Part shown: positions 40,863-62,810 of the stretch, one piece after another | How positions within the stretch are numbered: the first letter of the stretch is position 1 | Layout: the number at the start of each line of letters is the position of its first letter | DNA from: a virus | Lineage: Duplodnaviria; Heunggongvirae; Uroviricota; Caudoviricetes | Strand: one strand, 5' to 3' | DNA length: 64,000 nucleotides | IMG/VR virus record: IMGVR_UViG_3300007351_000001 | Notes under the pieces: generated by a model | Databases searched by the model: none | Seen by the model: the letters and a program-made list of their open reading frames with translations, nothing else | What the model was told of the DNA's origin: nothing | Made by a program: the position numbers and the translations under genes

Positions 40863-41423
40863 ATGTGGAAGTCGATGCGTGGGATCGTCATCGGTGCGGT
40901 CATCGGCGCCGTGACGCTCGTTCTGCAGGATCATCTCATGCGGCTCATCTACGCGACCGAGGAAGCCGTCCTCGATACGGTTGCAGCACTGTTCGCCGAT
41001 GATGAGCGATCGGATGGAGGCAGCCAGATCGCGATCGTGGACGATACGTACGAAGAGCCGACACCTCACGCGAACCCAATGACCGAGTTTGGCGGGACGA
41101 TGCACCTCTTCGCTGATGGTGCCGTGCTCTCGAAGGAATCGCCGGGCTGTGCCCTGACGACCTACAACGGCACGAACCTGCCGTATCGCGCGCTCAACTG
41201 CTCGCCGGGGGCTGGACAGGCGTTGTGGCAGCTTCCGTGGCCGGTTGGGGACGACTTCACCTACCGCGTGCACTACTCGACGGCGACGACGGACGTTAAG
41301 GCTTGCAAGTGGAACGTGGCGGCGCTGCCGGACCACGGCACGGCCGTCGTGTCGGTGAGCCTCAACCGTGACTCGACGACGACCACGGACTGCTCGCTCC
41401 GTAGCCTGGAGATTCGCTACTGA
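40863..41423 (+). CDS. membrane-anchored or secreted hypothetical protein (186 aa)
   Basis: N-terminal hydrophobic helix GIVIGAVIGAVTLVL. Confidence 0.55.
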   Translation: MWKSMRGIVIGAVIGAVTLVLQDHLMRLIYATEEAVLDTVAALFADDERSDGGSQIAIVDDTYEEPTPHANPMTEFGGTMHLFADGAVLSKESPGCALTTYNGTNLPYRALNCSPGAGQALWQLPWPVGDDFTYRVHYSTATTDVKACKWNVAALPDHGTAVVSVSLNRDSTTTTDCSLRSLEIRY

Positions 41424-41878
41424 TGTACCAACAAGTGCAAGCTGACCTCTGGTCGTACCCGGCCGACTGGCGAGTCGTCACGACTAATGGCTTCACGCGC
41501 AAAGACGGCACCGCCGTCATGGGTCGCGGCATCGCGGCGCAGGCGCGCACGAAGTACCCCGAGCTGGAGCGCAAGCTCGGCTTGCAACTGCGCGTCACCG
41601 GAAACGTCGTCTACGTCTTCCCCGAGTACAAGATCATCACGTTGCCGGTGAAGCCGACGCGTGGGCCGGACGGCACGCCCGGCTTCATGGTCGCGGCCGA
41701 TCCCATCCTGATCGGGGAGAGTCTTGTACAACTCGTGCGACGGAACCTGGACGGTGTGATCGCCATGCCGCGGCCAGGATGTGGCAACGGCAAACTGGAT
41801 TGGGCCACACAGGTCAAGCCGATCTGTGACCTCGTGCTCAAAGACGACCGCTACGTGGTGGTCGATTGGGAGGAGTGA
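41423..41878 (+). CDS. macro-domain-like protein (151 aa), putative ADP-ribose binding or hydrolase
   Basis: WRVVTTNGFTRKDGTAVMGRGIAAQARTKYPEL resembles the macro-domain N-terminal glycine-rich signature. Confidence 0.5.
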   Translation: MYQQVQADLWSYPADWRVVTTNGFTRKDGTAVMGRGIAAQARTKYPELERKLGLQLRVTGNVVYVFPEYKIITLPVKPTRGPDGTPGFMVAADPILIGESLVQLVRRNLDGVIAMPRPGCGNGKLDWATQVKPICDLVLKDDRYVVVDWEE

Positions 41879-49883: not shown

Positions 49884-50495
49884 ATGATGCGGATCAAGAT
49901 CGGTGAGGGTGACGAGGCCGACGACTACGGCGTCGGGTTCGGATACCAGGAGAAGCGGCGCGGCCGGACGCGGAAGCAGGGCGGAACCCCGCACTTGTCG
50001 GTCACAACGACGGCGATCGTCCAGCTGCCCAAGCGGTTCCAGTTTGCCGATGTGTTCGGCGTCGGGCCGCACCAGACGGACGAGGACGGCACTCTGCGCG
50101 GGGTCGTGACGATCCACGATGACGAGGGTGACCCGACGTTGACGGCCGAGGAACGCGCCAAGCACGCGTTCGTGGTCGAAGTCGTGCAACCGAAGGGCAA
50201 GGACGAGGCGCTCGATCGCGTCATGCTGATCGCCAGAACACGGTGCCACTCAGTGGCGGACGTCTACGATCGCGGCCGTGGCCGGCGCGGGGCGTTGCGC
50301 CGAGTGCTGACCGGGTTCAAGCAACTGCTTCCTGACGTCTATCTCGCCAAGGGCGATCGCCGCAGCGTACTCGCCAAGCAGATCTGGGCGATGTACTTCG
50401 ACCGCACGCGGGACGGCGTCGAGTTTGGCATGCGCGGCCCGTTTCTGAAGACGGACAAGAAAGAGGCTGTGCTGGATCCCGCTCCTTTGGAGTGA
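49884..50495 (+). CDS. hypothetical protein (203 aa)
   Basis: GGAAGGAG RBS; protein-like. Confidence 0.65.
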   Translation: MMRIKIGEGDEADDYGVGFGYQEKRRGRTRKQGGTPHLSVTTTAIVQLPKRFQFADVFGVGPHQTDEDGTLRGVVTIHDDEGDPTLTAEERAKHAFVVEVVQPKGKDEALDRVMLIARTRCHSVADVYDRGRGRRGALRRVLTGFKQLLPDVYLAKGDRRSVLAKQIWAMYFDRTRDGVEFGMRGPFLKTDKKEAVLDPAPLE

Positions 50496-50497
50496 CC

Positions 50498-51925
50498 ATG
50501 TCCTTGAAGTACCGCGCAGAGTTGCACGGGACGAACCACTACGTGTTGCCGCGCATCGGCACGATGCGGTGCGACGTGCACGCGTTCATGTCCCCAGAGC
50601 TGTACACGATCAGCGACGAAGGCACCTGGCAACAAGCCTTCGACGCTGCGTCGTACCCGAACGTGCGCGGAGTCTACCTGATGCCCGACTGCCATCTCGG
50701 GTACGGCATCCCGGTTGGCGGTGTAGTTGTCACCGACGGCGTGATCATCCAGTCGGGGTCGGGGTACGACATCTCATGCGGTGTCATCTACATGCGCTTG
50801 CCGGGAGTCACCGCAGCCGACGTCGTTGACTGGGAGCGCCGGCTGCGATGGGTGCGGGAAGTCGAGCTGCGGGTGGCCACTGGTGTCGGCCGGCACCGCC
50901 CGAAGCTCGCCCCCAAGATCACTGGTCGGATGATCGCCGAGGTCTTGCTCCACGGTGCCAAGCCCTTGGGCGTGTCGGCCGACGTGTGCGAGCGGCAGTT
51001 CATCCAGGTCGACGAGAAGCACTTCGACTCACAGCGGGTCGAGCGCGCCATCGAGCGTGCTGGCGACCAGCTTGGCTCGGTCGGCGGCGGCAACCACTTC
51101 ATCGAGCTGCAGGTGGATCGAGACACCGGTGAGGTGTGGGCGATGGTGCACTGTGGCAGCCGCGGCTTTGGTTGGCAGACGGCCAACCACTTTTTCTTCG
51201 CGGGCGCGGAAGCGCGCGGCCTGCCGAAGAACCGGCGCGAGTCGTCGTGGCTGTACGCCGACGAAGAAGTCGGGAAGCAGTATTGGGCGCATCACAACGC
51301 GGCGGCGAACTACGCGATCGCCAACCGGCACATGATCGTCGAAGGCGTGCGCGAGGCGACGCAGGAAGTGTTCGCGGCGAGCCCAGAGGTCTACTTCGAG
51401 ATCTCGCACAACCTCGTGCAAGACGAGCGCGTGCTCGTGCCTGGTGCGGACGGCTCCTACGAGTTTGTGCGTGGGTTCGTGCACCGTAAAGGCGCGACGC
51501 GCGCCTTCCCGGCACACCACCCCGATCTCGTCGGGACGAAGTGGGAAGAGACTGGGCACCCGTGTCTGATTCCAGGCTCGATGCTCGACGGAGCTGCGAT
51601 CTTGTTCCCGACCTTCCGCACGGTGGAGAGCGGGTTCTCAGTCAACCACGGCTCGGGTCGTGCCGTGGCGCGTGGACAGGCCAAGCGAGATCTCGAACCG
51701 CTGCAAGAGGACATCGACACCGAAATGCGGACGATCCGCCGCACAGTCGGCCCCGACCGGGTCGAGATCGTGGGCATTGTTGGCAACACAGCGAAGACGC
51801 CACTCGATGAGTGCGGACACGTCTACAAGAAGCTCGACCAGGTTGTAGGATCGCTGGTTGATGCCGGCGTGGCCACCGTTAGTGCGCGACTGTATCCCGT
51901 GGCGAACTTGAAAGGGACGGACTGA
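50498..51925 (+). CDS. rtcB: RtcB RNA 3'-phosphate ligase (475 aa)
   Basis: MPDCHLGYGIPVGGV, GSVGGGNHFIE, HNLV, GSM, NHGSGR: the conserved RtcB metal/GMP-binding motifs, in order. Confidence 0.9.
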   Translation: MSLKYRAELHGTNHYVLPRIGTMRCDVHAFMSPELYTISDEGTWQQAFDAASYPNVRGVYLMPDCHLGYGIPVGGVVVTDGVIIQSGSGYDISCGVIYMRLPGVTAADVVDWERRLRWVREVELRVATGVGRHRPKLAPKITGRMIAEVLLHGAKPLGVSADVCERQFIQVDEKHFDSQRVERAIERAGDQLGSVGGGNHFIELQVDRDTGEVWAMVHCGSRGFGWQTANHFFFAGAEARGLPKNRRESSWLYADEEVGKQYWAHHNAAANYAIANRHMIVEGVREATQEVFAASPEVYFEISHNLVQDERVLVPGADGSYEFVRGFVHRKGATRAFPAHHPDLVGTKWEETGHPCLIPGSMLDGAAILFPTFRTVESGFSVNHGSGRAVARGQAKRDLEPLQEDIDTEMRTIRRTVGPDRVEIVGIVGNTAKTPLDECGHVYKKLDQVVGSLVDAGVATVSARLYPVANLKGTD

Positions 51926-52032
51926 CGCTGGGCCTTGCTCGTGGTGGGGTGAGGTCCGGTTCTGCCCGAGGCGGTTGGTGTTGGGAAGAGCGCCAGCCGT
52001 CTCGGGTTCCACCGAGTGAAAGGAGGAGGGCG

Positions 52033-52695
52033 ATGGCTGTTCGTGATCGGGTACACCGATTGGTCACCGGTGCGTTTCATCAGATGATCTCTGCGATCGA
52101 GAACCAGGCTCCAGATGCCGTGATGGAGCAGGCGATTCGCGAGGCTGACGAGGCAACCGAGGAAGCTCGCAGTGAGTTGGCGCAAGTGCTGACGCGACAG
52201 CATTTGGCGTCGTCGCGTATCGCACGCGATACGGACGCGCTGCGCGCACTGGACGCGCAGGTGCAGTTGGCTCTGAAGGAGAAACGAGAGGACCTCGCGC
52301 GCGAAGCAGTCGCGCGGCAACTGGACCTCGAAGCGCAACTGTCGGTCGTGCAGGAGGCGGCGGATCACGAAGCGCATGCACGCGCTGACCTCGAACGCAT
52401 GATCCTCGCGCTCGATGCCCAGCGGCGAGAGATGCGCGAGGAGTTGGCAGCGTTCCGCGCTCAGCAGGACCGGGCCGTTCCAGGCGTTGACGCACCACCG
52501 ATGGGTGGCGTCACGGGGACCGTCGCGGAGCAGCGGGCTCGCCGGGCGAAAGAAGTGTTCGGCGATGTCATGAGCCGGCAGACGAATCTCCCGCGGCCAC
52601 TCGGGTCCACCAGCAAGCTCCAAGAGTTGGCGGACCTGGAGCGGACACATCGGATTGACGAACGACTCGCTGCTGCGAAGGCACAGCAAGGTTAG
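52033..52695 (+). CDS. PspA/IM30 family protein, copy 2 (220 aa)
   Basis: MAVRDRVHRLVTGAFHQMISAIEN..., ALKEKREDLAREAVARQLDLEAQL (cf. PspA [20 protein letters not shown]); GGAGGAGGG RBS. Confidence 0.75.
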   Translation: MAVRDRVHRLVTGAFHQMISAIENQAPDAVMEQAIREADEATEEARSELAQVLTRQHLASSRIARDTDALRALDAQVQLALKEKREDLAREAVARQLDLEAQLSVVQEAADHEAHARADLERMILALDAQRREMREELAAFRAQQDRAVPGVDAPPMGGVTGTVAEQRARRAKEVFGDVMSRQTNLPRPLGSTSKLQELADLERTHRIDERLAAAKAQQG

Positions 52696-52697
52696 CC

Positions 52698-53384
52698 GTG
52701 ACTTCCTTCACCTTCCTGCTGCAGGCGGGCGTGTGGCCGTTCACGGCAAGCCTGTCCTTGGTCGTGGTGCTCGCGATCTTGGAGTTCATGACGTACGTGG
52801 CAGGCCTTGGTGGAATCACGCATGCATTCGAGCACGCCTTTGGTGTCGATCTCGATGGCGACTTCGACATGGCGCACCCAGATTTCTCTCACGGGGGCGT
52901 CTTCGTAAAGGCCGTGAACTGGGCGCGGGTGGGAGAACTTCCACTGTCGATCTTACTGATCACGTGGTGGTTCCTCTTCGGCATCGTGGGGGTGGGGGCA
53001 CAATACGCGTCGTCGATCGTGCTTGGTGGTGCCACGATGCCGTTTTGGATCGTGGTCTGGCCAGTGATGGCCGTGTCGATTGGCGCGTACCGAGGGTGCG
53101 CGCGGATCTTTGTGCGGGTCTTGCCGACTGATGTCGAGACGTACGCGGTCGAGCCGTCGTCGTTCGTCGGAAGGACGGCAACTGTGGTCATGGGTACGGC
53201 GACCGTGACCGCCCCTGCTCAAGCTCGCTTGGTGGATCAGTACGGGAACGCGCACTACGTCATGGTCGAGCCGAGCGATCCAGAGCAGGCGTTCGCGCCT
53301 GGTGCCACCGTGCTGCTTGTTGAACAAAACGACGCGGTATTCCGCGTTATCAACCCGCCGAGCGCACTGTTACTCGGCACGTGA
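52698..53384 (+). CDS. YqiJ/YuaF (NfeD-like) membrane protein with C-terminal OB-fold (228 aa)
   Basis: Several TM helices, then GRTATVVMGTATV...ARLVDQYGNAHYVMVEP...GATVLLVEQNDAVFRV (NfeD beta-barrel pattern); located directly upstream of a flotillin gene as in yqiJK/yuaFG. Confidence 0.65.
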   Translation: MTSFTFLLQAGVWPFTASLSLVVVLAILEFMTYVAGLGGITHAFEHAFGVDLDGDFDMAHPDFSHGGVFVKAVNWARVGELPLSILLITWWFLFGIVGVGAQYASSIVLGGATMPFWIVVWPVMAVSIGAYRGCARIFVRVLPTDVETYAVEPSSFVGRTATVVMGTATVTAPAQARLVDQYGNAHYVMVEPSDPEQAFAPGATVLLVEQNDAVFRVINPPSALLLGT

Positions 53385-53397
53385 TGGGGGAGAGCTG

Positions 53398-55194
53398 ATG
53401 GAAGGTTTGATCGGAATCGGGATGGTGGTCGCAGTCTGCATGGCCGGGCTGGGTGCGATTGCCTTCATGATGTCGCGGCTCTACGTGCGCGCCACGCCCG
53501 AGTGGGCACTGGTCCGCAGCGGCTACCGCGGCAAGAAGGTTGTGATCGACGGCGGGTGCTTCGTCCTGCCGGTCTACCACGAGATCCAGCGGGTCAACAT
53601 GAAGACGGTGAAGCTCGCCGTCACGCGCCAGCAGCGGGACTCGTTGATCACCAAGGATCGGCTGCGCGTCGATGTCATCGTGGAGTTCTACGTCCGCGCC
53701 AAGCCGGACGCGACGGCGATCCCGGAAGCGGCTCGGACGCTCGGGGAGCGCACCGCCGACCAAGCGGCGCTCAAGGATCTCATCGAGGGCAAAGCGGTCG
53801 GCGTGCTGCGTGCGGTTGCGGCGCGCATGACGATGGCAGAGCTGCACGAGGACCGGGCGAAGTTCGAGCAGGAAGTGCTGAACGGCGTGCAGAAGGACCT
53901 GACGAAGAACGGCCTCGAACTGGAGTCGTCGGCGATGACGCACTTCAACCAGACGGCCAAAGAGTTCTTTGTCGCCGAGAACGCCTTTGACGCCGAAGGG
54001 CTCGCAATGCTCACCGCTGCGGTCGAGCAGCGTCGGCAAGAGGTGAACAACATCGAGGTGACCACGCGCGTGGCGATCGAGACGCGCAATCTCGAAGGGC
54101 AGCGGCGATCGTTGCAACTCGCGCAGGATACGCAGGAGGCGATGCTGACTCAGCAGCTCGCCATCGAGACCGCCACTGCGCAGCGCAAACGTGAGATCGC
54201 ACAACAGCAGGCAGAGCAGGATCGGCTGGCGCAAGAGGCGCAGATCGCCGCGCAACAGCAAGTGCAGCTGGCGTCGGTCGAAGCCGAACGGACTGTGCAA
54301 GAGGCGAAGGCGCAACAGCACGCCGCCGTGCAACAGGCGCAGATCGCTTCAGAGCGGGCGGTGAAGGTGGCCGACGAACAGCGCCAGCGTGATGTGGCGG
54401 TGGCGGCTGAGGAACGTCAGCGTGACGTGGAAGTGGCCAAACAGGAGCGCAACATCAAGGTGCAGACCAAGAGCGAGGAGCTGTCGGGTGCCACGGCCAG
54501 TGCTGAACGCGCTCGTGCCGAGGCGGTCGTAGCCGAGCAGCAGGTCATCACGGCCCAAGCGGTGGCCTCCGCGGATCGTGAGAAGCAAGTGGCGGTGATC
54601 GCGGCTGAGCGCGAGGCACAGCAGGGGGCGGTCGGCCTGGTGGTCAACGCCAAGGCGCATGAGGATGCCGCCGCACACGAGGCCGCAGCTGTCATGGTGA
54701 GAGCGACGGCGGATACCGACGCCAAGCGCCTCGCCCTGGAGATCGCGGAGCGTGACTTCGCGGTCCGCGCCACGGGCACGCGGCTCTTGCACGAGTCCGA
54801 GAACGTGCTCGGGCAGTCGGCGATGGACTTGCGGCTGCGCCTGGCCCTGGTCGAGCACGCCGCGGCGATGATCACTGCGGCCGGCAAGCCGGTCGAGCAC
54901 ATCAAGGATCTGCGGGTCATTGCCGTGCAGGGCATTCCGGGGCTGGCGGGGCCGTTGCCGGTGAACGGCGACGGCTCTACCGTTGCCAACGGCACTGGGC
55001 ACGACGCCGGATTGCCCGACCAGATCGTCAATGCGGCCCTGCGTCACCAGGCGCTCGCGCCGCTGGTTGGGCTGTTGATGGGGGAGATCGGCATCGACCC
55101 CACGACCATGAATGGCATTGCTCGCCCTCTGACTGACATGGCGGTGGCGCGGCCCGCCCACCCAGCGAACGGAGATGCCCGAGCGTCGAGCTAA
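53398..55194 (+). CDS. flotillin / SPFH (band-7) family protein, YqiK/FloT-like (598 aa)
   Basis: N-terminal TM helix, SPFH core (YHEIQRVNMKTVKLAVTRQQRDSLITKDRLRVDVIVEFYVR), long Ala/Gln/Glu-rich coiled coil (flotillin repeats). Confidence 0.85.
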   Translation: MEGLIGIGMVVAVCMAGLGAIAFMMSRLYVRATPEWALVRSGYRGKKVVIDGGCFVLPVYHEIQRVNMKTVKLAVTRQQRDSLITKDRLRVDVIVEFYVRAKPDATAIPEAARTLGERTADQAALKDLIEGKAVGVLRAVAARMTMAELHEDRAKFEQEVLNGVQKDLTKNGLELESSAMTHFNQTAKEFFVAENAFDAEGLAMLTAAVEQRRQEVNNIEVTTRVAIETRNLEGQRRSLQLAQDTQEAMLTQQLAIETATAQRKREIAQQQAEQDRLAQEAQIAAQQQVQLASVEAERTVQEAKAQQHAAVQQAQIASERAVKVADEQRQRDVAVAAEERQRDVEVAKQERNIKVQTKSEELSGATASAERARAEAVVAEQQVITAQAVASADREKQVAVIAAEREAQQGAVGLVVNAKAHEDAAAHEAAAVMVRATADTDAKRLALEIAERDFAVRATGTRLLHESENVLGQSAMDLRLRLALVEHAAAMITAAGKPVEHIKDLRVIAVQGIPGLAGPLPVNGDGSTVANGTGHDAGLPDQIVNAALRHQALAPLVGLLMGEIGIDPTTMNGIARPLTDMAVARPAHPANGDARASS

Positions 55195-55246
55195 GGTCGT
55201 TCGTGTCGGTGACCACAGTAGTGCGTCGGCGATCTCGATTGCGGTG

Positions 55247-55507
55247 ATGGGGCTGGCTCTCAAAGAGCAGCCCCTCACCAACGTCGAGCTGCAATACCTG
55301 CGCGAGCAGTCTGGGATCACGATCGACACGATGGCGAACGTGGTGTGTTTGACACCACGGACTGTGCGTCGAATCGAGGACGGCAGATCAAAGCTGGCGT
55401 ACGCCGCTGAGGCGCTCTGGCGCCTCGCTGCCGTTCACTGGTTCGCGGTCCGTGCAGAACGATTCATCCTCTACAACCGACCCGCATCGAGACGGAGGGC
55501 TTCGTGA
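55247..55507 (+). CDS. small HTH protein (~86 aa)
   Basis: LREQSGITIDTMANVVCLTPRTVRRIEDG helix-turn-helix; start uncertain. Confidence 0.45.
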   Translation: MGLALKEQPLTNVELQYLREQSGITIDTMANVVCLTPRTVRRIEDGRSKLAYAAEALWRLAAVHWFAVRAERFILYNRPASRRRAS

Positions 55508-56895
55508 TGTGGCGCATCAACCCGATCCTGTGCACGGACAGCTACAAGCACACGCACCATCCGCAGCTGCCACCGGACGCCGAGGTCTTCTTCTCGTACT
55601 TCGAGGCGCGTGGTGGCGACTACCCAGCCACCAACTGGTTTGGGTTGCAGGCGATCATCCAGGAGCACCTCATCGGTGAGGTCATCACCGACGAAGACAT
55701 CTACGAGGCGCGCGACGTCGCCCGCTTCCTGCACGGCGGTGAGGATTACTTCAACATCGACGGGTGGCGGCGCATTGTGGGCGACCACGGCGGCAAGTAC
55801 CCGGTGCGCATCCGCGCGGTACCCGAAGGCACCTGGGTGCCGACCTCGAACGTGCTCTACACCATGGAGAACCGCGACAAGAAGCTGCCGTGGCTGAACA
55901 GCCACTTGGAGACCATGTGCGTGCAGTCGTGGTACCCGATGGGCGTCTCGACGCTGAGCGGTTTCCTGAAACCGATCTTTCAGCGGTATCTCGAACAGAC
56001 CGGATCGCCGGAACTGCTCCGGACGAGACTCCATGACTTCGGGATCCGTGGCACAACCTGCATGCACCAAGCGGCACGCGGCGGTGCTGGGCACCTCGTG
56101 CACTTTGATGGCACCGACAACTACCCAGCGATGTTGCTGCTGCGCGACTTCTACGGCGGCAAGCTCTACGGCTCGTCGGTGCCGGCCGCGGAGCACTCGA
56201 CGATCACGTCGTGGGGTCCTGAGCGTGAGCAGGATGCGTACGAGAACCTCCTGCGCCAATACCCGCGCGGACTGGTCGCCCTGCCGACTGATTCGTACAA
56301 CACGCTGAAAGCGATCCACATGTTGACTGTGACTCTGCGCGACTTGGTGGAAGCGCGCGACGGCGTCTTGGTCATGCGGCAGGACTCCGGTGACCCGAGT
56401 GAGACGATGCGCCAGGTCTTGGCGGTCGCCGGCCAGAACGCCGGGTACCACCTGAACGACAAGAGCTACCGAGTGTTGAACCCGAAGTACCGGGTCCTGC
56501 AATCTGAAGGCGTGAATCGCGCCGAGATCAACCAGATGCTCTGGCTCCTCACCAACAACACCTGGTCGATCGACAACATCGTCTTCGGCATGGGCGGTGC
56601 GCTTCTGCAGAAGCTCGATCGCGACACGTCTTTCTGCGCGTGCAAGTGCTCGTGGGTCGGGCTCTCTGACGGAACGGGCCGCGACGTCTACAAAATGGCG
56701 CCCGGCAAACGTTCCAAGCGCGGCCGACTGAAGCTCGTCGAACAGAAGGGCGAGCTGACCACGGTCCGGCAGGAAGAAGCTGGCAAGGATCTCCTGGAGG
56801 ACATCTACGACTGCGGCCAGCTGCTCAACCCGTACACCTTCGACCAGGTGCGAGCGAACGCCGAAGCGTCTTGGCGTCCGCGGTGGGCGCACTGA
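55504..56895 (+). CDS. nadV: nicotinamide phosphoribosyltransferase (NadV/NAMPT), 463 aa
   Basis: NPILCTDSYKHTHHPQLP, DFGIRGTT, GSSVPAAEHSTITSWG. Confidence 0.9.
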   Translation: MMWRINPILCTDSYKHTHHPQLPPDAEVFFSYFEARGGDYPATNWFGLQAIIQEHLIGEVITDEDIYEARDVARFLHGGEDYFNIDGWRRIVGDHGGKYPVRIRAVPEGTWVPTSNVLYTMENRDKKLPWLNSHLETMCVQSWYPMGVSTLSGFLKPIFQRYLEQTGSPELLRTRLHDFGIRGTTCMHQAARGGAGHLVHFDGTDNYPAMLLLRDFYGGKLYGSSVPAAEHSTITSWGPEREQDAYENLLRQYPRGLVALPTDSYNTLKAIHMLTVTLRDLVEARDGVLVMRQDSGDPSETMRQVLAVAGQNAGYHLNDKSYRVLNPKYRVLQSEGVNRAEINQMLWLLTNNTWSIDNIVFGMGGALLQKLDRDTSFCACKCSWVGLSDGTGRDVYKMAPGKRSKRGRLKLVEQKGELTTVRQEEAGKDLLEDIYDCGQLLNPYTFDQVRANAEASWRPRWAH

Positions 56896-57173
56896 TGGAG
56901 CTGAACGACACCACCTGGGTGCTGATCGGTGTGCCAGAGGCGCTCACCAAACTCGCTCCGGACGTCCACTGGTCACAGACCCACGTCTGCTGCACGTGCG
57001 GCGAGCGGCTCTACACCAACGAAGAGATGCGCGGGATTCTCGCCAGCGCCGACCATCACATCCACACCGTGTGCTTTCGCTGTGGGCTGAGTCTTGCAGA
57101 GAAGCACAAGGATGACGTCGCGATCGAGTGGGTTGAGGAGATCGCGGAAGGCATGAAAGGGCCACTGCAATGA
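56895..57173 (+). CDS. hypothetical Cys/His-containing small protein (92 aa)
   Basis: ATGA overlap with nadV stop; CCTCGERLY...HHIHTVCFRCG. Confidence 0.5.
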   Translation: MELNDTTWVLIGVPEALTKLAPDVHWSQTHVCCTCGERLYTNEEMRGILASADHHIHTVCFRCGLSLAEKHKDDVAIEWVEEIAEGMKGPLQ

Positions 57174-58102
57174 CGGACATGCAGCCAGTCGAAGAGAGCG
57201 GTAGTCGTAGCGTCGGGATCGTGATCGGCCGCTTTCAGGCCCACGCGTTGCACCATGTGCACCGCTCGCTGATCGAGTATGTCATGGGGCAACACAGCCG
57301 CGTCGCGATCTTCCTGGGGGTCGCGCCGATCCCCGGCACGCCGCGCAACCCGCTCGACTTCGAGACGCGCAAGCGCATGCTGCAGGACGTCTGGCCGGAC
57401 CTGCCGGTGCTCGATCTGCACGACCGCCCGACCGACGACGAGTGGAGCCAACTGCTCGACGAGCGCGTGCGCTCGCTCTATCCGACGCAGAAAGCCGTGC
57501 TCTACGGTGGGCGCGATTCGTTCATCAGTCACTACACCGGCCGGTTGCCGGCGCGTGAGCTGGAGCCGGCAACGTACGTAGCCCAAGTCTCAGCCACGCA
57601 GCTGCGCCAGCTTGCGGCCTCGGGCGTGGCGGCGTCAGAGGACTTCCGCCGCGGCGTGATCTTCGGGGTCCACAACCGTTACACGCGCACCGCGATCCCC
57701 GCCGTCGACATCGCTGTGGTTCGTGGGGAGGAGCAGGTACTGCTCGGCCGCAAGCCGCACGAGACCGGCTGGCGTTTCCCTGGCGGCATCGTCGAAGACG
57801 ACGAAACCTACGAGCAGGCCGTGCTGCGGGAGTTGCGCGAGGAAGCCGGTGCGCTCGACGTCGAGGACCTCCACTACTTGGCGAGCTTCAAGGTCGATGA
57901 CTGGCGCTACCGCGGTGAAGCGATGGGCATCATGACCGCCTTCTATCGCGCGACGTGGGTCGCCGGTACGCCGCTGCCGGGCGATGATCTCGCCGAGGTC
58001 CGTTGGGCGGGGCTCGTGTCGCTCACGCAGGAGGAGATCGTCCCGTCGCACTGGCCCTTGGTGCAGAAGCTCTGGTACCCGCCGACTCGGACGGAACGCT
58101 GA
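57170..58102 (+). CDS. nadM: bifunctional NMN adenylyltransferase / Nudix hydrolase (NadM-Nudix), 310 aa
   Basis: GIVIGRFQAHALHHVH (HxGH nucleotidyltransferase) and Nudix box GGIVEDDETYEQAVLRELREEAG. Confidence 0.85.
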   Translation: MTDMQPVEESGSRSVGIVIGRFQAHALHHVHRSLIEYVMGQHSRVAIFLGVAPIPGTPRNPLDFETRKRMLQDVWPDLPVLDLHDRPTDDEWSQLLDERVRSLYPTQKAVLYGGRDSFISHYTGRLPARELEPATYVAQVSATQLRQLAASGVAASEDFRRGVIFGVHNRYTRTAIPAVDIAVVRGEEQVLLGRKPHETGWRFPGGIVEDDETYEQAVLRELREEAGALDVEDLHYLASFKVDDWRYRGEAMGIMTAFYRATWVAGTPLPGDDLAEVRWAGLVSLTQEEIVPSHWPLVQKLWYPPTRTER

Positions 58103-58551
58103 TGGCACGCCCCAGCTGGGACGAGTACTTCATGACGATCACGCGGCAGGTCTCGGAGCGCTCGACCTGTACGCGGGCGAAGGTGGGGGCGATCATCGTC
58201 CGTGACCGCAACATCCTAGCGACCGGCTACAACGGCTCTCCGTCCGGAGCCCCACACTGCCTCGATGTCGGCTGCTTGATGTTCAAGACGATCGACCCTG
58301 ACGGCACCGAGGACGAGTACTGCTTCCGCACGATCCACGCGGAGATGAACGCGCTCACGCAGGCGGCGAAGCATGGCTCGACAGTGCGCGACGCCGACCT
58401 CTACTGCACGCACTCGCCCTGTTACCACTGCTTCAAGGTCCTGATGAACACGGGGCTGCGGCGGATCTTCTACGTGAAGCCGTATCGGCTGGAGTCGATC
58501 GCCGAGCTGCGGCAGGTGGCGCCGGTTGAACTCGTTCCCATCCTGCTATGA
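58102..58551 (+). CDS. dCMP deaminase (150 aa)
   Basis: CTRAKVGAIIV...HAEMNAL...CTHSPCYHC zinc-binding deaminase motifs; ATGA overlap. Confidence 0.85.
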   Translation: MARPSWDEYFMTITRQVSERSTCTRAKVGAIIVRDRNILATGYNGSPSGAPHCLDVGCLMFKTIDPDGTEDEYCFRTIHAEMNALTQAAKHGSTVRDADLYCTHSPCYHCFKVLMNTGLRRIFYVKPYRLESIAELRQVAPVELVPILL

Positions 58552-58820
58552 GTAGATGGGATCGGCGGTACATTGCCGCCCTCTGCGTCGTCCTAGCCGC
58601 GCTGGCGGGCTTTGCCGGCGCACAGCTCTCCTCGACCCCCAATGTCGTCTGCATCTGCCAGAAACGCCCCATTGCGTCCTGGGCGGCAATGCACGGCACA
58701 CACACGAAGTTCACGTGCACTGTGATGGTGCCAGAGGGCGGGCTGCTCGTCCACGCGGACTGTCTCTACGTCAACACGCACGAGGTCGTGAGGGAGTTCC
58801 GAGTCGATCGCCGACCGTAA
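58548..58820 (+). CDS. small signal-peptide/membrane protein (90 aa)
   Basis: ATGA overlap; IAALCVVLAALAGFAGA hydrophobic N-terminus. Confidence 0.5.
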   Translation: MSRWDRRYIAALCVVLAALAGFAGAQLSSTPNVVCICQKRPIASWAAMHGTHTKFTCTVMVPEGGLLVHADCLYVNTHEVVREFRVDRRP

Positions 58821-58902
58821 CGGCCGGCCTCGTGTGGAATAAGCACTTGACCACGCGATAAAACTTCGTCACCATCACGGCCGGATAGAGGAGGTGGTGG
58901 TG

Positions 58903-59055
58903 ATGGCGGAAGATCGACTCGTCGAGATCCGCGACGAGAAGGACCAGCTCGTGGGCTATCGGTGCCCTGTCTGCAGTCGGTACTTCGGACTGCAGGAGCA
59001 GGTCCAGGCGCAAGGGTGCCTGGCCTCGCATCGCGAGCTGCTTGTCGAAGGCTGA
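58903..59055 (+). CDS. zinc-ribbon small protein (50 aa: MAEDRLVEIRDEKDQLVGYRCPVCSRYFGLQEQVQAQGCLASHRELLVEG), absent from ORF track
   Basis: ATG after GAGGAGGTGGTGGTG RBS; CPVC...C..H. Confidence 0.5.
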   Translation: MAEDRLVEIRDEKDQLVGYRCPVCSRYFGLQEQVQAQGCLASHRELLVEG

Positions 59056-59071
59056 ATCTAGCCGCTCGCCG

Positions 59072-59797
59072 TTGGTCGAGGCCGTGTTCGCCCCGTTCGA
59101 GCGGGCGGCGGCGTTCGAGGCCTTCAACCACTGGCAGCAGACGCTCGCTGCGTCGGCGCTTGACCAGGCTGTGCAGCTGGCGCTCCCGTGCGTCGGCTTC
59201 GCGTACCGGATCCTGTTCCTGCAGCAGGCGCGGATCCGCAAGCTCGACCCGATGACGCGCGACGAGTTACTGGCCGGCGGCGCGGCTGAGGTGTTCGAGC
59301 GCTTGCGAAACAAGCGGGATTTTGTGGGCGACGCCGACGCGTACGAGCGGTACCTCGTCGCCACCGCTCGCCGGCTGATGTCTGGCATGTGCCCGCGGCC
59401 GGAGGTCCTCGACTACGACGTGTCGAGCCTCTGGCACCCGATGGGACGCGTCCGTGACATCCGCGACGTCGAGTATCAGCTGCTGTTGGAGAAGCTACCC
59501 ACGCTTCTGTGGCGCTACTTCCGTGACCAGTGCCGCCTGGTGGGCTCCGAACGCCACGCCGCGGCGGATGTGCTGCGCCGAATGCTGAGCGGCCGTGGGC
59601 TCGGGCTCATGCGGTTGAAACAACAGTTCCGAGTCCTCGATCCGGACTTCATTGTGAACTACGTCCTCGTGCTCGTGCGCCGGTTCCTCTACGAACTACG
59701 TGCCGAGTACGGGCGCATTGTTGAGGTGCCGACGGAGTGGGCGCCGGTGTGGGGTGGTGGTGGCGGCGGTGATGGCAGCCGAACAACTGGTCGGTGA
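59072..59797 (+). CDS. hypothetical protein, possibly sigma-factor-like (~240 aa; start uncertain)
   Basis: FERLRNKRDFVGDADAYERYLVATARRLM weakly resembles sigma region 2; C-terminal Gly run. Confidence 0.45.
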   Translation: MVEAVFAPFERAAAFEAFNHWQQTLAASALDQAVQLALPCVGFAYRILFLQQARIRKLDPMTRDELLAGGAAEVFERLRNKRDFVGDADAYERYLVATARRLMSGMCPRPEVLDYDVSSLWHPMGRVRDIRDVEYQLLLEKLPTLLWRYFRDQCRLVGSERHAAADVLRRMLSGRGLGLMRLKQQFRVLDPDFIVNYVLVLVRRFLYELRAEYGRIVEVPTEWAPVWGGGGGGDGSRTTGR

Positions 59798-60137
59798 CGA
59801 CGCGCTGAGCATCATCGACCCGGAAGTCCGGCGCCACTTCCCCATCTTCATGGCGCTGCTCTTCCAGCGGGTGCAGCGCACACTCTTGCCGGAGATCCTC
59901 GACATCTTCGGTGAAGAGGCGTTCCTCAAGTTCATCGACGTCTTCGCCGGTACCACGATCACGGTGCCGGACCGGACCGTGCTCACCAACCTAGTCCGCG
60001 ACGCCGACATCTACGCACGGCTGCAGGAAGGGGAAAGCACCGAGGCGCTCGCCAACAAGTACGGCATCACCCAGGAAGCCGTGCGCTGGATCCATCACCA
60101 GGTGAAGCGCGTGGCCGTAGAGGCGATCACGCCATGA
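59772..60137 (+). CDS. Mor/C-family-like transcriptional activator (121 aa)
   Basis: LLPEILDIFGEEAFLKFIDVFAGTTITVPDR...TEALANKYGITQEAVRWIHHQ matches the Mor pattern (FGG..LYIPK ... C-terminal HTH). Confidence 0.6.
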   Translation: MAAEQLVGDDALSIIDPEVRRHFPIFMALLFQRVQRTLLPEILDIFGEEAFLKFIDVFAGTTITVPDRTVLTNLVRDADIYARLQEGESTEALANKYGITQEAVRWIHHQVKRVAVEAITP

Positions 60138-60784
60138 CCAAGGCTTCTCCTCCCCCGACTCCGAGCAACGTCGTGCCTATCGCGGGCAAGGGACGCCGTC
60201 GGAAGAAGGGCGCTGCTGCCGCGGCCCCACCACCACCGCCGGCTCCACCGCCACCAGAGCCGTCACAGGGCAACCTGAACAACATCGCTGGCTGGGTCGG
60301 ACGTGACAGTGCCGATGTCGGTATGGCCGGTCCGTCGTTCCAATCAGTGGTGAAGAACGGCCGCGACGAGATGGTCGTGATTCAGCTCGCGTACGCGCGC
60401 CACGTCGTCGCCAACCGCCTGCCTGGGCTGGTGAGTCTCGCCGGTCGCGTCGAGCAGGCGCTGATGAAGAAGCTCGACGGGAAGCTCGAAGACTTCGACG
60501 TCAAGCAGCTCTGGGGCATGCTCGGACTCACGCAGAAGCACATCGAGGCGTCGATGGCGGCGGTTCAGGTCGTTGTTGACGGGCCGAAGCCGATCATGCC
60601 GCCGCTCGATGATCCCAACCCGAGCGCCTCGCGGCAGCTCGCTGCCAACCTCCCCGAGCGCAGCCGTGAGCGCATGCGCCGCTTGATGCAGTACCTTGCG
60701 ACCGCCGCCGAGCAGTTCTCGGACGACGAGCGTGCGGCGACTGCCCGCCCGATCACTGATGATCCTCCAACCAACCCAGGATGA
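60134..60784 (+). CDS. hypothetical protein, candidate terminase small subunit (216 aa)
   Basis: Position immediately upstream of and overlapping terminase large subunit; Pro/Ala-rich N-terminus. Confidence 0.45.
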   Translation: MTKASPPPTPSNVVPIAGKGRRRKKGAAAAAPPPPPAPPPPEPSQGNLNNIAGWVGRDSADVGMAGPSFQSVVKNGRDEMVVIQLAYARHVVANRLPGLVSLAGRVEQALMKKLDGKLEDFDVKQLWGMLGLTQKHIEASMAAVQVVVDGPKPIMPPLDDPNPSASRQLAANLPERSRERMRRLMQYLATAAEQFSDDERAATARPITDDPPTNPG

Positions 60785-62810
60785 GCAGCGGCTGCTCGCG
60801 CGTGTGCTTGATGAAGCGAAGCATCACGACCGGATCTTCTTCAACGCGCTCTCTGACCACGAGCAGCAGGCCGCGCTAGCGATGCTTCGCGAGTTGCGCC
60901 TGCAGGGCAACTCGCCAACGCTCGATCAGTTCTGGGAGATCGACTACGAACGCCGGCCGTTGACGGTCGCGCAGTTCTTCGACGACCCGTACCACTGCGG
61001 GAAGTTCTTGCACGAGAACCTCTACGACGTCTGGCGACAGGATATGCAGGACGTCGTCGAGGGGCACTGCATCGAGTGGATCTTGGCCGGCGCCATCGGC
61101 GTGGGGAAGACCACGGTCGCCATGGCGTTCATGCTCTACATGATCCAGCGTCTGCTCTGCATGCGCGACCCGTGCGGGTACTACAAGACGCCGGCCGGCA
61201 TCGTCTTCGCGTTCTTCTCGATCATCGTGCACCTCGCCAAGTCAGTCGAGTACAACATCCTCACCACCGAGTTGCTCGACTCTGAGTTCTTCCGCTCGCT
61301 GACCGCTGTCGACGAGGACAAGCGGCGCACCGAGCAGAACGCCGTGCTCCTCTTCCCGAAGAACATCAAGTTCGCCTTCGGGTCGAAGGCCGTCCACACC
61401 CTCGGCCAGAACGTCTACGCCGGGGTGATGGACGAGGTGGCGTTCGCCGGAGGCACCGAGAACTCGCAGATGGTCACGCTCTACAACAACGTCCGGCGCC
61501 GCATGGAGTCGCGTTTCATGGACGAGCAGAGCGAGGACCAGCCGGGCGTGCTCTGCATCGTGTCGTCGGCCAACCGTGAGGGTGACTTCCTCGACACCCA
61601 CATCAAGGCGCACCGTGACGACCCCATGGTGCACATCAGCACCTACGCCCGCTGGCACGTGAAGCCGTTCCCTGGCCCGTGGTTCCGCGTCCAGGTTGGT
61701 GACAAGCTGCACGCCTCGCGCGTCCTCGACGTCGTCGAGGAGAGCGTTGACCGTAAGGGTGAGCGCAAGGTGGTGCCACAGTCCGAGCCTGCCCTGGGCG
61801 CCAACGTCGTCGAAGTGCCAGCGCAGTTCTACCAGCAGTTCGTCGAGGACATTGAAGGCGCCTTGCGTGACATTGCCGGTGTCTCGATCTTCACCTCGAA
61901 CCCGGTGTTCCCACACCGCGAGAAGATCTACGCCTGCGCCACCGACGAGCTGCCCTTCCCATTCACCGTCGACGAGCCGCGGGTGCACATTCACTCTGAC
62001 ATCGAGCTGGAGCACGTGTTCAAGAAGGAGGCGCTCTTCAAGTGCGTCGATCCCTTCCGCGATGTTTGGCAGATCATTCGCCACCCGGCGTCGCCGCGGT
62101 TTGTTCACGTCGACCTTGGGCTGAAGCACGACTCGTGCGGCATCGCGATCTGTCACATCGCGGGTGTGAAGACCGTCACGCGTCTCGACAACCAGGACAA
62201 GGCGCACCAGGAGGTCGCTCCAATGGTCGAGTTCGACCTGGTGGTGCGCATCCCGCCGACACCGAACTCCGAGATCGACATCGCCAAGGTGCGCTCGTTC
62301 ATCTTCTTCTTGATCAAGCTCGGGATGCCGGTGCAGTTCGTCAGCTACGACGGCTTCGCCTCCGAGGAGTCGCTGCAGGTGTTCGTGAAGGCGTCGATCG
62401 AGGCCAAGCGCATCTCGGTCGACAAAGACCCGGCCGCATACCTCTCGCTCAAGTCGGCGATCATGGAGGAGCGGGCGCGGTACTACGGGTACGAGCCGAT
62501 GATGCGCGAGCTGGCGCAGCTGCAGCGCGTCGACCCCAAGCCAGGCACAATCATGTGGCACCGCAAGTTCAAGATCGACCACCCGCCGAAGGGCTCGAAG
62601 GACGCCTCCGACGCCGCGGCCGGCGCGTGCTACATGTGCGTGACCAGCAAGTTCGCCGAGACGCAGCTGCTCTCGCCGGAGGTCCTGGCCGGCGCCAAGG
62701 AGGCCTTCGGCAAGCCGCCGCTGCAGATACCGGCTGAGCCGATTAGCTGGGCCATCCGCGACCACGACGAGGCCGACGTCATCGCCAAGTACCTCGATGG
62801 TGGATTCTGA
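60759..62810 (+). CDS. terminase large subunit (ATPase + nuclease), ~683 aa
   Basis: Walker A GAIGVGKTTVAMAF, Walker B-like AGVMDEVAFAG, C-terminal nuclease region with conserved acidic residues; start taken at in-frame ATG 60759. Confidence 0.85.
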   Translation: MILQPTQDEQRLLARVLDEAKHHDRIFFNALSDHEQQAALAMLRELRLQGNSPTLDQFWEIDYERRPLTVAQFFDDPYHCGKFLHENLYDVWRQDMQDVVEGHCIEWILAGAIGVGKTTVAMAFMLYMIQRLLCMRDPCGYYKTPAGIVFAFFSIIVHLAKSVEYNILTTELLDSEFFRSLTAVDEDKRRTEQNAVLLFPKNIKFAFGSKAVHTLGQNVYAGVMDEVAFAGGTENSQMVTLYNNVRRRMESRFMDEQSEDQPGVLCIVSSANREGDFLDTHIKAHRDDPMVHISTYARWHVKPFPGPWFRVQVGDKLHASRVLDVVEESVDRKGERKVVPQSEPALGANVVEVPAQFYQQFVEDIEGALRDIAGVSIFTSNPVFPHREKIYACATDELPFPFTVDEPRVHIHSDIELEHVFKKEALFKCVDPFRDVWQIIRHPASPRFVHVDLGLKHDSCGIAICHIAGVKTVTRLDNQDKAHQEVAPMVEFDLVVRIPPTPNSEIDIAKVRSFIFFLIKLGMPVQFVSYDGFASEESLQVFVKASIEAKRISVDKDPAAYLSLKSAIMEERARYYGYEPMMRELAQLQRVDPKPGTIMWHRKFKIDHPPKGSKDASDAAAGACYMCVTSKFAETQLLSPEVLAGAKEAFGKPPLQIPAEPISWAIRDHDEADVIAKYLDGGF

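What the first reader, a model, noticed from the sequence alone, without database searches (positions are those of the whole stretch)
55504..58102. NAD+ salvage pair NadV + NadM-Nudix (plus dCMP deaminase) typical of NAD-reconstitution anti-defence
Seen: NAMPT signature motifs in 55504..56895. A bifunctional HxGH nucleotidyltransferase plus Nudix box lies in 57170..58102, separated by a 92-aa Cys/His protein.

Established: NadV+NadM convert nicotinamide/ADP-ribose back to NAD+. Such phage pathways have been reported to overcome NAD-depleting defence systems (Thoeris, DSR, SEFIR-type).

Inference: together with the macro-domain protein at 41423, this suggests the element is equipped against ADP-ribose/NAD-based host immunity.
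Basis: partly seen in the sequence, partly recalled or inferred. Interest (0 to 1): 0.55.

Follow-up and report, generated by a model that had tools for sequence, protein, structure and literature searches.

The report
Phage NAD+ salvage operon (NARP2-type)
A large uncultured phage carries the known two-enzyme pathway that rebuilds the cofactor NAD+ from nicotinamide, which phages use to survive NAD-destroying bacterial defences; it is a divergent but ordinary example of a described system.

Summary
Window 55504-56895 encodes a true nicotinamide phosphoribosyltransferase (NadV/Nampt). Window 57170-58102 encodes a two-domain NMN adenylyltransferase + Nudix protein (NadM-Nudix). A 92-aa Cys/His ORF lies between them and a dCMP deaminase follows. 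Overlapping stop/start codons tie all of them into one operon, on a jumbo phage (241-kb contig, 10 tRNAs, TerL, PolA, DnaB, RecA).

NadV is Nampt-type, not the NARP1 enzyme Namat: it lacks the aromatic clamp, and no Adps/Prs gene is in the window.

NadM belongs to a short, uncharacterised subfamily. A 2-residue insertion shifts its HxGH motif, which reads HHVH here. This subfamily sits next to NadV in 152 of 160 loci examined. In Bacteroidota it forms an NrtR-nadM-nadV salvage operon.

So this is a NARP2-type pair, already described for phages and common in jumbo phages.

Peculiar to this locus:
- reversed gene order (NadV before NadM; 152 of 152 relatives have the opposite order);
- an orphan Zn-ribbon-like ORF wedged between the two genes;
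- unique conservative substitutions at catalytic motifs (GD>SE and RPDSG>RQDSG in NadV; G/A>V in HxGH).

The anti-defence role is inferred by homology only. Verdict: new member of a known kind, low to moderate interest.

The parts
55175..55507 (+). 110-aa XRE-like helix-turn-helix protein; its stop overlaps the NadV start (GTGA). Possible operon member or regulator.
   Evidence: Pfam HTH_31 24.9 bits and HTH_3 21 bits, both just below cut-off; phrog_7950 transcriptional repressor at 0.002; junction sequence.
55504..56895 (+). NadV / nicotinamide phosphoribosyltransferase (Nampt), 463 aa from GTG 55504. JGI aa from ATG 55507. Catalytic His231 is in AAEHSTIT (nt 56194-56196); GMGGALLQK is at nt 56587-56613.
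   Evidence: NCBIfam PRK09198 454.8 bits > 405; PDB 7yqo 371 bits against SpbetaL1 Namat 9W5X 164 bits; Nampt-type clamp region and no Namat insertion; phrog_448 410 bits.
56895..57173 (+). Orphan 92-aa Cys/His (Zn-ribbon-like, CCxC...CxxC) protein. Translationally coupled on both sides (TGATG upstream, ATGA downstream).
   Evidence: Only self-hits among 5.8 billion proteins and in the exhaustive HMMER search of 1.84 billion representatives. No Pfam or PHROG family. GC3 0.79, typical of coding sequence here. JGI called the same 92-aa gene (P0121). AF2 model has low confidence, pLDDT 43.8.
57170..58102 (+). NadM-Nudix, 310 aa: N-terminal NMN adenylyltransferase domain (about aa 14-170) and C-terminal Nudix hydrolase domain (about aa 176-302).
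   Evidence: hhalign against canonical phage NadM-Nudix: probability 99.9%, E 2.6e-35, 287 columns. AF2 pLDDT 84.9. The top 6 Foldseek PDB hits are all NadM-Nudix chains (2qjt, 2qjo, 2r5w), E 4e-18 to 4e-16. Linked to NadV in 152 of 160 loci.
57251..57262 (+). HxGH-equivalent motif H28-H-V-H31 of the adenylyltransferase domain.
   Evidence: H28 and H31 are invariant in 46 subfamily members. They align to the canonical HxGH. They sit at the N-terminus of helix 1 in the model. The third position is G or A in 114 of 118 relatives and V only here.
57590..57607 (+). SATQLR, the second nucleotidyltransferase motif (ISSTxxR-type).
   Evidence: Regex match; aligned to NATDIR of canonical NadM; R146 invariant.
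57785..57853 (+). Nudix box, Gx5Ex7REUxEExGU (GIVEDDETYEQAVLRELREEAGA).
   Evidence: Regex match; Pfam NUDIX 73 bits.
58102..58551 (+). dCMP deaminase (149 aa), coupled to the NadM stop (TGATG). Nucleotide metabolism, not NAD.
   Evidence: PF00383 96.2 bits; phrog_174 164.6 bits; HAE...PCxxC present.
58548..58820 (+). 90-aa ORF of unknown function, last coupled gene of the string (ATGA overlap).
   Evidence: Junction sequence; no family found.
41423..41878 (+). Context only: DarG-like macrodomain protein (151 aa), 14 kb upstream.
   Evidence: PADLOC DarG 3.4e-8; PDB 5m3i 9.4e-4; phrog_335 1e-19; no Pfam Macro hit.

Best explanation
This is a phage-borne nicotinamide salvage operon of the NARP2 type.

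Proposed steps during infection:
1. NadV (Nampt) condenses nicotinamide with PRPP to give NMN.
2. The N-terminal domain of NadM adenylylates NMN with ATP to give NAD+.
3. The C-terminal Nudix domain most likely splits ADP-ribose (or NAD(H)) into AMP and ribose-5-phosphate. A host Prs can turn the ribose-5-phosphate back into PRPP.

The phage copy lacks the ADP-ribose-responsive repressor NrtR that controls the same gene pair in bacteria. NAD+ synthesis is therefore driven by the phage programme. [quoted passage not shown]

Shown here: identity, fold, motifs, operon structure and gene linkage.
Inferred: the enzyme activities and the Nudix substrate.
Inferred by analogy with KVP40 NARP2: the counter-defence benefit.
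For: NadV:
- Above the curated cut-off and about 50% identical to structurally characterised Nampt.
- Catalytic signatures present.
- Nampt-type GMGGALLQK, whereas Adps-linked Namats read G[IV]GSYTYQY. It has a short beta1-beta2 loop and lacks the Namat insertion (criteria from PMC12774641).
- No Prs/Adps homologue in the window, best tblastn E > 1.

NadM-Nudix:
- Full-length profile match to canonical phage NadM-Nudix.
- Confident model whose best structural matches are the solved NadM-Nudix enzymes.
- Invariant HxxH, SxTxxR and Nudix box.

Linkage:
- NadV lies within 6 kb on the same strand in 79 of 80 viral and 73 of 80 cellular loci of this NadM subfamily.
- The pair is also adjacent in Tunturi_5 and in a 642-kb megaphage.
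- NrtR-nadM-nadV operons occur in Chitinophaga and Cytophagaceae.
- NrtR lies upstream in 68 of 80 cellular loci and 0 of 80 viral loci.

Operon and phage context:
- Overlapping stop/start codons link the genes.
- Phage context: TerL, 10 tRNAs, replication genes.

Literature:
- NARP2 defined and shown to counter NAD-depleting systems (10.1101/2024.02.11.579819).
Against: - No biochemical data exist for this NadM subfamily. NCBIfam NadM equivalog models score far below cut-off (61.9 against 397).
- The window proteins carry substitutions that are unique among about 120 nearest relatives at conserved catalytic positions: NadV GD>SE (111 of 114 have GD) and RPDSG>RQDSG; NadM HxG/AH>HHVH.
- Only 64 kb of the 241-kb genome is visible, so an Adps, Prs, NadR or PnuC elsewhere cannot be excluded.
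- The host and its defence repertoire are unknown.
- NAD+ salvage may serve general metabolism rather than counter-defence.
Confidence: 0.75

Rival explanations
1. Same enzymes, different purpose. The pair is a general auxiliary metabolic module that raises the NAD+ pool to support the heavy biosynthetic load of a jumbo phage. It would not be specifically a counter-defence device.
For: - The identical gene pair is a housekeeping salvage operon in Bacteroidota.
- It sits in a string with a dCMP deaminase, which is plain nucleotide metabolism.
- KVP40 NARP2 over-produces NAD+ even without any defence system.
Against: - The phage ligase in the window is ATP-dependent (PF01068), so there is no obvious NAD+-consuming phage enzyme here.
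- NARP2 demonstrably counters NAD-depleting systems.
- The neighbourhood holds other candidate counter-defence genes: a DarG-like macrodomain and RtcB.
- The two roles are not mutually exclusive.
Confidence: 0.3
2. One or both enzymes are retuned or inactive. The unique substitutions at catalytic motifs would change substrate or activity, so the operon would not run the canonical Nam > NMN > NAD+ route.
For: - GD>SE at the ribose/phosphate-contacting Gly-Asp (Gly360/Asp361 contact NAD+ in Namat, PMC12774641).
- RPDSG>RQDSG, and Val at the Gly/Ala position of HxGH. Each is unique among about 120 relatives.
- Gene order is reversed relative to 152 of 152 related loci.
Against: - All changes are conservative (Gly>Ser, Asp>Glu, Pro>Gln, Gly/Ala>Val).
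- The catalytic His residues, Arg residues, the Nudix box and SxTxxR are intact.
- Both ORFs are full length with coding-type GC3 and are translationally coupled.
- From my own knowledge: the third HxGH position is not Gly in some active NMNATs.
Confidence: 0.1
3. It is NARP1: NadV would really be a Namat that uses ADPR-PP made by an Adps.
For: Namat and Nampt are homologous and are both annotated 'nicotinamide phosphoribosyltransferase'.
Against: - No aromatic clamp-helix residues, a short clamp loop and no Namat insertion.
- 164 bits to Namat 9W5X against 371 bits to Nampt.
- No Adps/Prs in the window.
- The partner gene is an Nmnat. NARP1 and NARP2 were never found together in one phage.
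Confidence: 0.02

Closest known systems
NARP2 of Vibrio phage KVP40 (Nampt NadV + bifunctional Nmnat/Nudix NatV)
   Same: Same two enzyme families, both phage-encoded, no Adps. Predicted route is Nam + PRPP > NMN > NAD+, with a Nudix domain fused to the adenylyltransferase.
   Different: - About 35% identity to a KVP40-genus Nampt (Vibrio phage XZ1).
- NadM belongs to a different, shorter subfamily: about 25% identity to canonical phage NadM-Nudix, a 2-residue insertion before HxGH, and a truncated interdomain linker.
- Gene order is reversed and an orphan ORF lies between the genes.
Bacterial salvage II operon nrtR-nadM-nadV (Synechocystis; Chitinophaga/Cytophagaceae here)
   Same: The same NadM subfamily (41-45% identity) sits next to NadV. 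The same pathway logic applies (PMC2330246).
   Different: The phage copy has no NrtR repressor (0 of 80 viral loci against 68 of 80 cellular). The bacterial order is always nadM then nadV.
Tunturiibacter phage Tunturi_5 gp218-gp217 and 460-640-kb uncultured megaphages (LR7565xx)
   Same: These are the closest phage NadM relatives (37-41% identity). NadV is adjacent in Tunturi_5 and in LR756502. All are jumbo phages.
   Different: Their order is NadM then NadV, with no Zn-ribbon ORF between. In LR756500 no NadV lies within 6 kb of NadM.
NARP1 (Adps + Namat)
   Same: It also rebuilds NAD+ in phages, and Namat is a NadV homologue.
   Different: It uses ADPR-PP directly. Namat has the aromatic selectivity clamp and an Adps partner; both are absent here.
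NARP3 (PnuC + NadR-like; PMC13464706)
   Same: Phage NAD+ restoration with a HIGH-superfamily adenylyltransferase.
   Different: It starts from imported nicotinamide riboside. No PnuC or NadR was detected among the window ORFs examined.

Membership tests
NARP2 (phage NAD+ reconstitution pathway 2) | Nampt-clade phosphoribosyltransferase, distinct from the Adps-associated Namat clade | tested here: met
   GMGGALLQK instead of the aromatic GSYTYQY; short clamp loop; no Namat insertion. 371 bits to Nampt against 164 bits to Namat.
NARP2 (phage NAD+ reconstitution pathway 2) | An Nmnat encoded in the same phage genome | tested here: met
   NadM-Nudix lies 275 nt downstream in the same operon.
NARP2 (phage NAD+ reconstitution pathway 2) | No Adps (PRPS-like) partner | tested here: inconclusive
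   None in the 64-kb window (best tblastn E > 1), but the other ~177 kb of the 241-kb contig could not be retrieved.
NARP2 (phage NAD+ reconstitution pathway 2) | Encoded on a phage genome | tested here: met
   TerL; 10 tRNAs; phage replication module; 241-kb contig.
NARP2 (phage NAD+ reconstitution pathway 2) | Makes NAD+ from nicotinamide, PRPP and ATP, and rescues phage from NAD-depleting defence | not testable with these tools
   Needs enzyme assays and plaque assays.
NadV / NAMPT (PRK09198) | Score above the curated equivalog cut-off | tested here: met
   454.8 bits against 405.
NadV / NAMPT (PRK09198) | Conserved active-site residues (Tyr in DSYK, HDFGxRG, GTD, catalytic His in AEHS, RPDSG, QGDG, GxGG) | tested here: inconclusive
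   All are present except QGDG>QSEG and RPDSG>RQDSG, which are conservative but unique among 120 relatives.
NadM-Nudix bifunctional NMN adenylyltransferase/ADPR pyrophosphatase | Two-domain architecture and fold | tested here: met
   hhalign 99.9% over 287 columns. The top 6 Foldseek hits are 2qjt, 2qjo and 2r5w chains over the full length.
NadM-Nudix bifunctional NMN adenylyltransferase/ADPR pyrophosphatase | (H/T)xGH and ISSTxxR nucleotidyltransferase motifs | tested here: met
   H28-H-V-H31 aligns to HxGH, both His are invariant, and Gly is replaced by Val. SATQLR is present.
NadM-Nudix bifunctional NMN adenylyltransferase/ADPR pyrophosphatase | Nudix box Gx5Ex7REUxEExGU | tested here: met
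   GIVEDDETYEQAVLRELREEAGA.
NadM-Nudix bifunctional NMN adenylyltransferase/ADPR pyrophosphatase | Score above the NCBIfam PRK05379 equivalog cut-offs | tested here: not met
   Best score is 61.9 bits against 397. The protein belongs to a separate, uncurated subfamily, so it is filed as a homologue or subfamily member and not as an equivalog.
NadM-Nudix bifunctional NMN adenylyltransferase/ADPR pyrophosphatase | Genomic association with nadV | tested here: met
   152 of 160 subfamily loci have NadV within 6 kb on the same strand.
NARP1 (Adps + Namat) | Adjacent Adps, and a Namat with an aromatic selectivity clamp | tested here: not met
Macro domain (DarG-type), ORF 41423-41878 | Significant match to macrodomain models | tested here: inconclusive
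   No Pfam Macro hit at E<=1. PADLOC DarG 3.4e-8 covers 37 residues only. PDB DarG macrodomain 5m3i 9.4e-4. phrog_335 1e-19.
dCMP deaminase | Cytidine/dCMP deaminase Zn-binding domain with HAE...PCxxC | tested here: met
   PF00383 96.2 bits; motif present. The TIGR02571 ComEB cut-off is not reached (146.5 against 219.45).

The most novel reading that the evidence does not exclude
The locus could be a rewired version of NARP2. Three features fit that reading: the reversed gene order, the translationally coupled orphan Zn-ribbon protein between NadV and NadM, and the unique substitutions at the substrate-contacting motifs of both enzymes.

Under this reading, either substrate use or regulation is altered, with the Zn-ribbon protein as a third functional component (for example an adaptor, or an inhibitor of a host NADase). 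Alternatively, the uncharacterised short NadM subfamily's Nudix domain (DDWRYR signature, NudC-like by fold) could act on an immune signal or NAD-capped RNA rather than ADP-ribose.
Probability: 0.06. Interest if true: 0.55.

Novelty: new member of a known kind. Interest (0 to 1): 0.25.

Why it matters
The locus adds a deeply divergent, high-GC jumbo-phage example to the known NARP2 class.

The analysis also shows that a large, biochemically uncharacterised NadM-Nudix subfamily is almost always paired with NadV. At least 343 viral and 372 genomic stretches carry this subfamily. It is short, has a shifted HxGH motif, and current curated models miss or under-call it: the NMNAT half gets no Pfam hit, and NCBIfam scores fall far below cut-off. 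This matters in practice for surveys of phage counter-defence, which may under-count NARP2 in environmental and jumbo phages.

The loss of NrtR in every phage copy examined fits deregulated NAD+ synthesis during infection. Beyond that, the finding is expected biology.

Tried and rejected
1. I first read GRFQAHALHH as a broken HxGH, because HMMER's gapless pairing with Francisella NadM put Ala and His on the motif. The subfamily alignment and hhalign showed a 2-residue insertion and invariant H28/H31, so I rejected that reading.

2. A conserved third gene between nadM and nadV in phages. The viral gap is larger (median 404 bp against 39 bp), but the inserts are heterogeneous: homing-endonuclease-like ORFs, unrelated small ORFs and one unrelated Zn-ribbon. 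Rejected.

3. Homologues of the 92-aa ORF. None were found by the word-indexed search, the exhaustive HMMER search (the 3 weak hits are long repetitive proteins), Pfam/PHROGs/PADLOC or tblastn on 160 related loci. The AF2 model is unusable.

4. An ADP-ribosylglycohydrolase at 43502-44329 (Pfam 0.0017). This is a low-complexity Ala-rich artefact.

5. NARP1/Namat. Rejected.

6. An NAD riboswitch or other RNA element near the operon. Rfam finds only tRNAs, and no promoter-like site lies in 52000-61000.

7. Retrieving the rest of the 241-kb contig failed.

8. The nearest NadV relative (58% identity) is on a cellular forest-soil contig without NadM, so it gave no synteny information.
Full report
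WHAT IS THERE

The window is 65% G+C. From about 24 kb onward it reads as a phage replication and host-takeover arm on the + strand. It holds an AAA_5 ATPase, an ATP-dependent ligase, a helicase, DnaB, a primase, a PolA fused to a UDG-superfamily domain, a 5'-3' exonuclease, RecA, PspA, RtcB, a YqiJ/NfeD + SPFH-flotillin pair and Mor. It also holds a large terminase, matching annotated TerL genes at E = 1e-74 but only about 28% identity. There are 10 tRNA genes. The NadM protein is found, 100% identical, on a 241,426-bp JGI contig. The element is therefore an uncultured jumbo phage with no close cultured relative. Its host is unknown.

THE OPERON

Gene junctions show overlapping stops and starts:
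- HTH/NadV: GTGA
- NadV/92-aa ORF: TGATG
- 92-aa ORF/NadM: ATGA
- NadM/dCMP deaminase: TGATG
- deaminase/90-aa ORF: ATGA

A GGAGG sits just upstream of the NadV start. No promoter-like site lies in 52000-61000. The genes are thus one translationally coupled string, probably continuing from the flotillin gene upstream.

NadV

ORF 55504-56895 exceeds the curated NCBIfam cut-off (454.8 bits against 405). It has both Pfam NAMPT domains. It scores 371 bits against Xanthomonas Nampt and 350 bits against human NAMPT.

Phage 'nicotinamide phosphoribosyltransferases' fall into two functional classes, so I tested which one this is. Namat, the NARP1 enzyme, carries a 'selectivity clamp': Phe392 and Tyr396 on a helix, plus a longer beta1-beta2 loop (PMC12774641). 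Two Adps-linked phage Namats read G[IV]GSYTYQY at that helix and have a large insertion after RPDSGDP. The window protein reads GMGGALLQK, identical to Xanthomonas Nampt, and has the short loop and no insertion. It scores only 164 bits against SpbetaL1 Namat (9W5X). No Prs/Adps-like gene is in the window. It is therefore a Nampt.

Two oddities stand out. The near-universal Q-G-D-G reads Q-S-E-G (GD in 111 of 114 relatives), and RPDSG reads RQDSG. Both are unique among the 120 nearest relatives.

NadM-Nudix

ORF 57170-58102 has a clear Nudix domain and a complete Nudix box. Its N-terminal half is missed by Pfam and scores far below the NCBIfam NadM cut-offs (61.9 against 397).

HMMER's gapless pairing with Francisella NadM suggested a broken HxGH. 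That reading was wrong. In an alignment of 34-46 subfamily members, H28 and H31 are invariant and many members read L-H-x-G-H. Profile-profile comparison with canonical phage NadM-Nudix proteins (probability 99.9%, E = 2.6e-35, 287 columns) inserts two residues after GRFQ. It places H28..H31 on HxGH and SATQLR on NATDIR.

An AlphaFold model (pLDDT 84.9) puts the motif at the N-terminus of helix 1. Its six best PDB matches are all chains of the solved NadM-Nudix enzymes. After those, the Nudix domain alone most resembles NudC-type NAD(H) pyrophosphatases.

The third motif position is Gly or Ala in 114 of 118 relatives and Val only in the window protein.

IS THE SUBFAMILY REALLY AN NMN ADENYLYLTRANSFERASE?

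Comparative genomics says yes.
- Among 80 viral and 80 cellular loci recovered with the subfamily profile, NadV lies within 6 kb on the same strand in 79 and 73 loci respectively.
- In Chitinophaga and Cytophagaceae the arrangement is NrtR-NadM-NadV, with Prs nearby. This is the NrtR-regulated 'salvage II' pathway (PMC2330246).
- NrtR with its winged-helix domain is upstream in 68 of 80 cellular loci and 0 of 80 viral loci. Phage copies have escaped the ADP-ribose-responsive repressor.
- The nearest phage relatives are Tunturi_5 and 460-640-kb megaphages. NadV is adjacent in Tunturi_5 and in LR756502.

WHAT IS PECULIAR HERE

1. Gene order. All 152 linked loci, the canonical phage examples and Synechocystis have nadM before nadV. 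The window has nadV first.
2. The 92-aa Cys/His ORF between the genes (CCxC...CxxC) is an orphan. Only self-hits appear in two very large protein searches, no family matches, and there is no counterpart in 160 related loci. Small ORFs between nadM and nadV are common in phages, but they are unrelated to one another. I therefore treat it as a lineage-specific insertion of unknown function.
3. The unique catalytic-motif substitutions described above.

MECHANISM

The most likely mechanism is canonical NARP2: Nam + PRPP > NMN (NadV), then NMN + ATP > NAD+ (NadM). The Nudix domain would recycle ADP-ribose to AMP + ribose-5-P, which a host Prs can use.

NARP2 from KVP40 raises NAD+ and counters NAD-depleting defences (bioRxiv 10.1101/2024.02.11.579819). 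A viral survey found NadV in 33% of jumbo phages and NadM always together with NadV (PMC9503650). The finding is therefore a correct identification of a known system.

The counter-defence role is an inference. A general NAD+-boosting role is equally compatible with the sequence, and the two roles are not exclusive.

The ORF at 41423 gives no Pfam macro hit. It does match DarG-type macrodomains in three libraries. 'Macro domain' is therefore reasonable, but it points to reversal of DNA ADP-ribosylation (DarT) rather than to NAD depletion.

The dCMP deaminase is genuine but belongs to nucleotide metabolism.

VERDICT

This is a new, divergent member of a known kind. Interest is low to moderate. 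The most useful by-product is the recognition that a large, poorly modelled NadM subfamily is tightly NadV-linked in both phages and Bacteroidota.

Noticed in passing
window 202-275 (-): A tRNA with an 8-nt anticodon loop (CU-CUGG-GU). ARAGORN reports a 4-base anticodon 'ctgg' and no amino-acid assignment; Rfam tRNA scores 52 bits. It could be a quadruplet-decoding or frameshift-suppressor-like tRNA, or a mis-folded Gln/Pro tRNA. It is one of 10 tRNAs in the window.
   Followed up: partly
window 41423-41878 (+): DarG-like macrodomain protein immediately upstream of the RecA/UvsX-like gene (41882-42967). It is a candidate phage enzyme for removing DarT-type ADP-ribose from DNA. Evidence is moderate: PADLOC DarG 3.4e-8, PDB 5m3i 9e-4, phrog_335 1e-19, and no Pfam hit.
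   Followed up: partly
window 47886-48596, 52698-53384, 53302-55194 (+): A phage-encoded membrane-stress set: PspA/IM30, a YqiJ (NfeD-like) protein and a 630-aa SPFH/flotillin protein. The last two lie directly upstream of the NAD operon. This is unusual cargo for a phage, and its function here is unknown.
   Followed up: no
window 50492-51925 (+): RtcB RNA ligase (Pfam 273 bits). It is plausibly tRNA repair against anticodon nucleases, which fits the many phage tRNAs.
   Followed up: no
window 48603-49829 (+): A 408-aa ORF with weak transposase/TnpB-like signals (phrog_506 1.8e-5; Pfam Cas12f1-like_TNB 0.22). It may be an IS200/IS605-type insertion in the phage genome.
   Followed up: no
window 34113-37445 (+): An 1110-aa DNA polymerase A with an N-terminal uracil-DNA-glycosylase-superfamily domain (UDG 67 bits + DNA_pol_A 194 bits).
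   Followed up: no
window 23966-26763 (+): An AAA_5 (MoxR/dynein-like) ATPase followed by a DUF2201 putative metallopeptidase protein. They form a conserved-looking pair of unknown role at the start of the + strand arm.
   Followed up: no
loci L013-L171 (related loci): The short NadM-Nudix subfamily (GRFQ-xxxL-HxG/AH, DDWRYR in the Nudix domain, about 300 aa) is abundant: at least 343 viral and 372 genomic stretches. Its N-terminal domain is usually not recognised by Pfam PF01467, and NCBI often names it only 'NUDIX domain-containing protein'. NrtR is upstream in 68 of 80 cellular loci but 0 of 80 viral loci.
   Followed up: yes
L005 8429-11754 (ENA contig NODE_17, 269 kb): Downstream of NadM-NadV there is a tandem duplication of a DUF5824 + 314-aa gene pair, with a truncated 214-aa NAPRTase fragment between the two copies.
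   Followed up: no
L177 (LR756500, 462-kb uncultured phage): This megaphage has the variant NadM but no NadV within 6 kb on either side. It is one of the few exceptions to the linkage.
   Followed up: no
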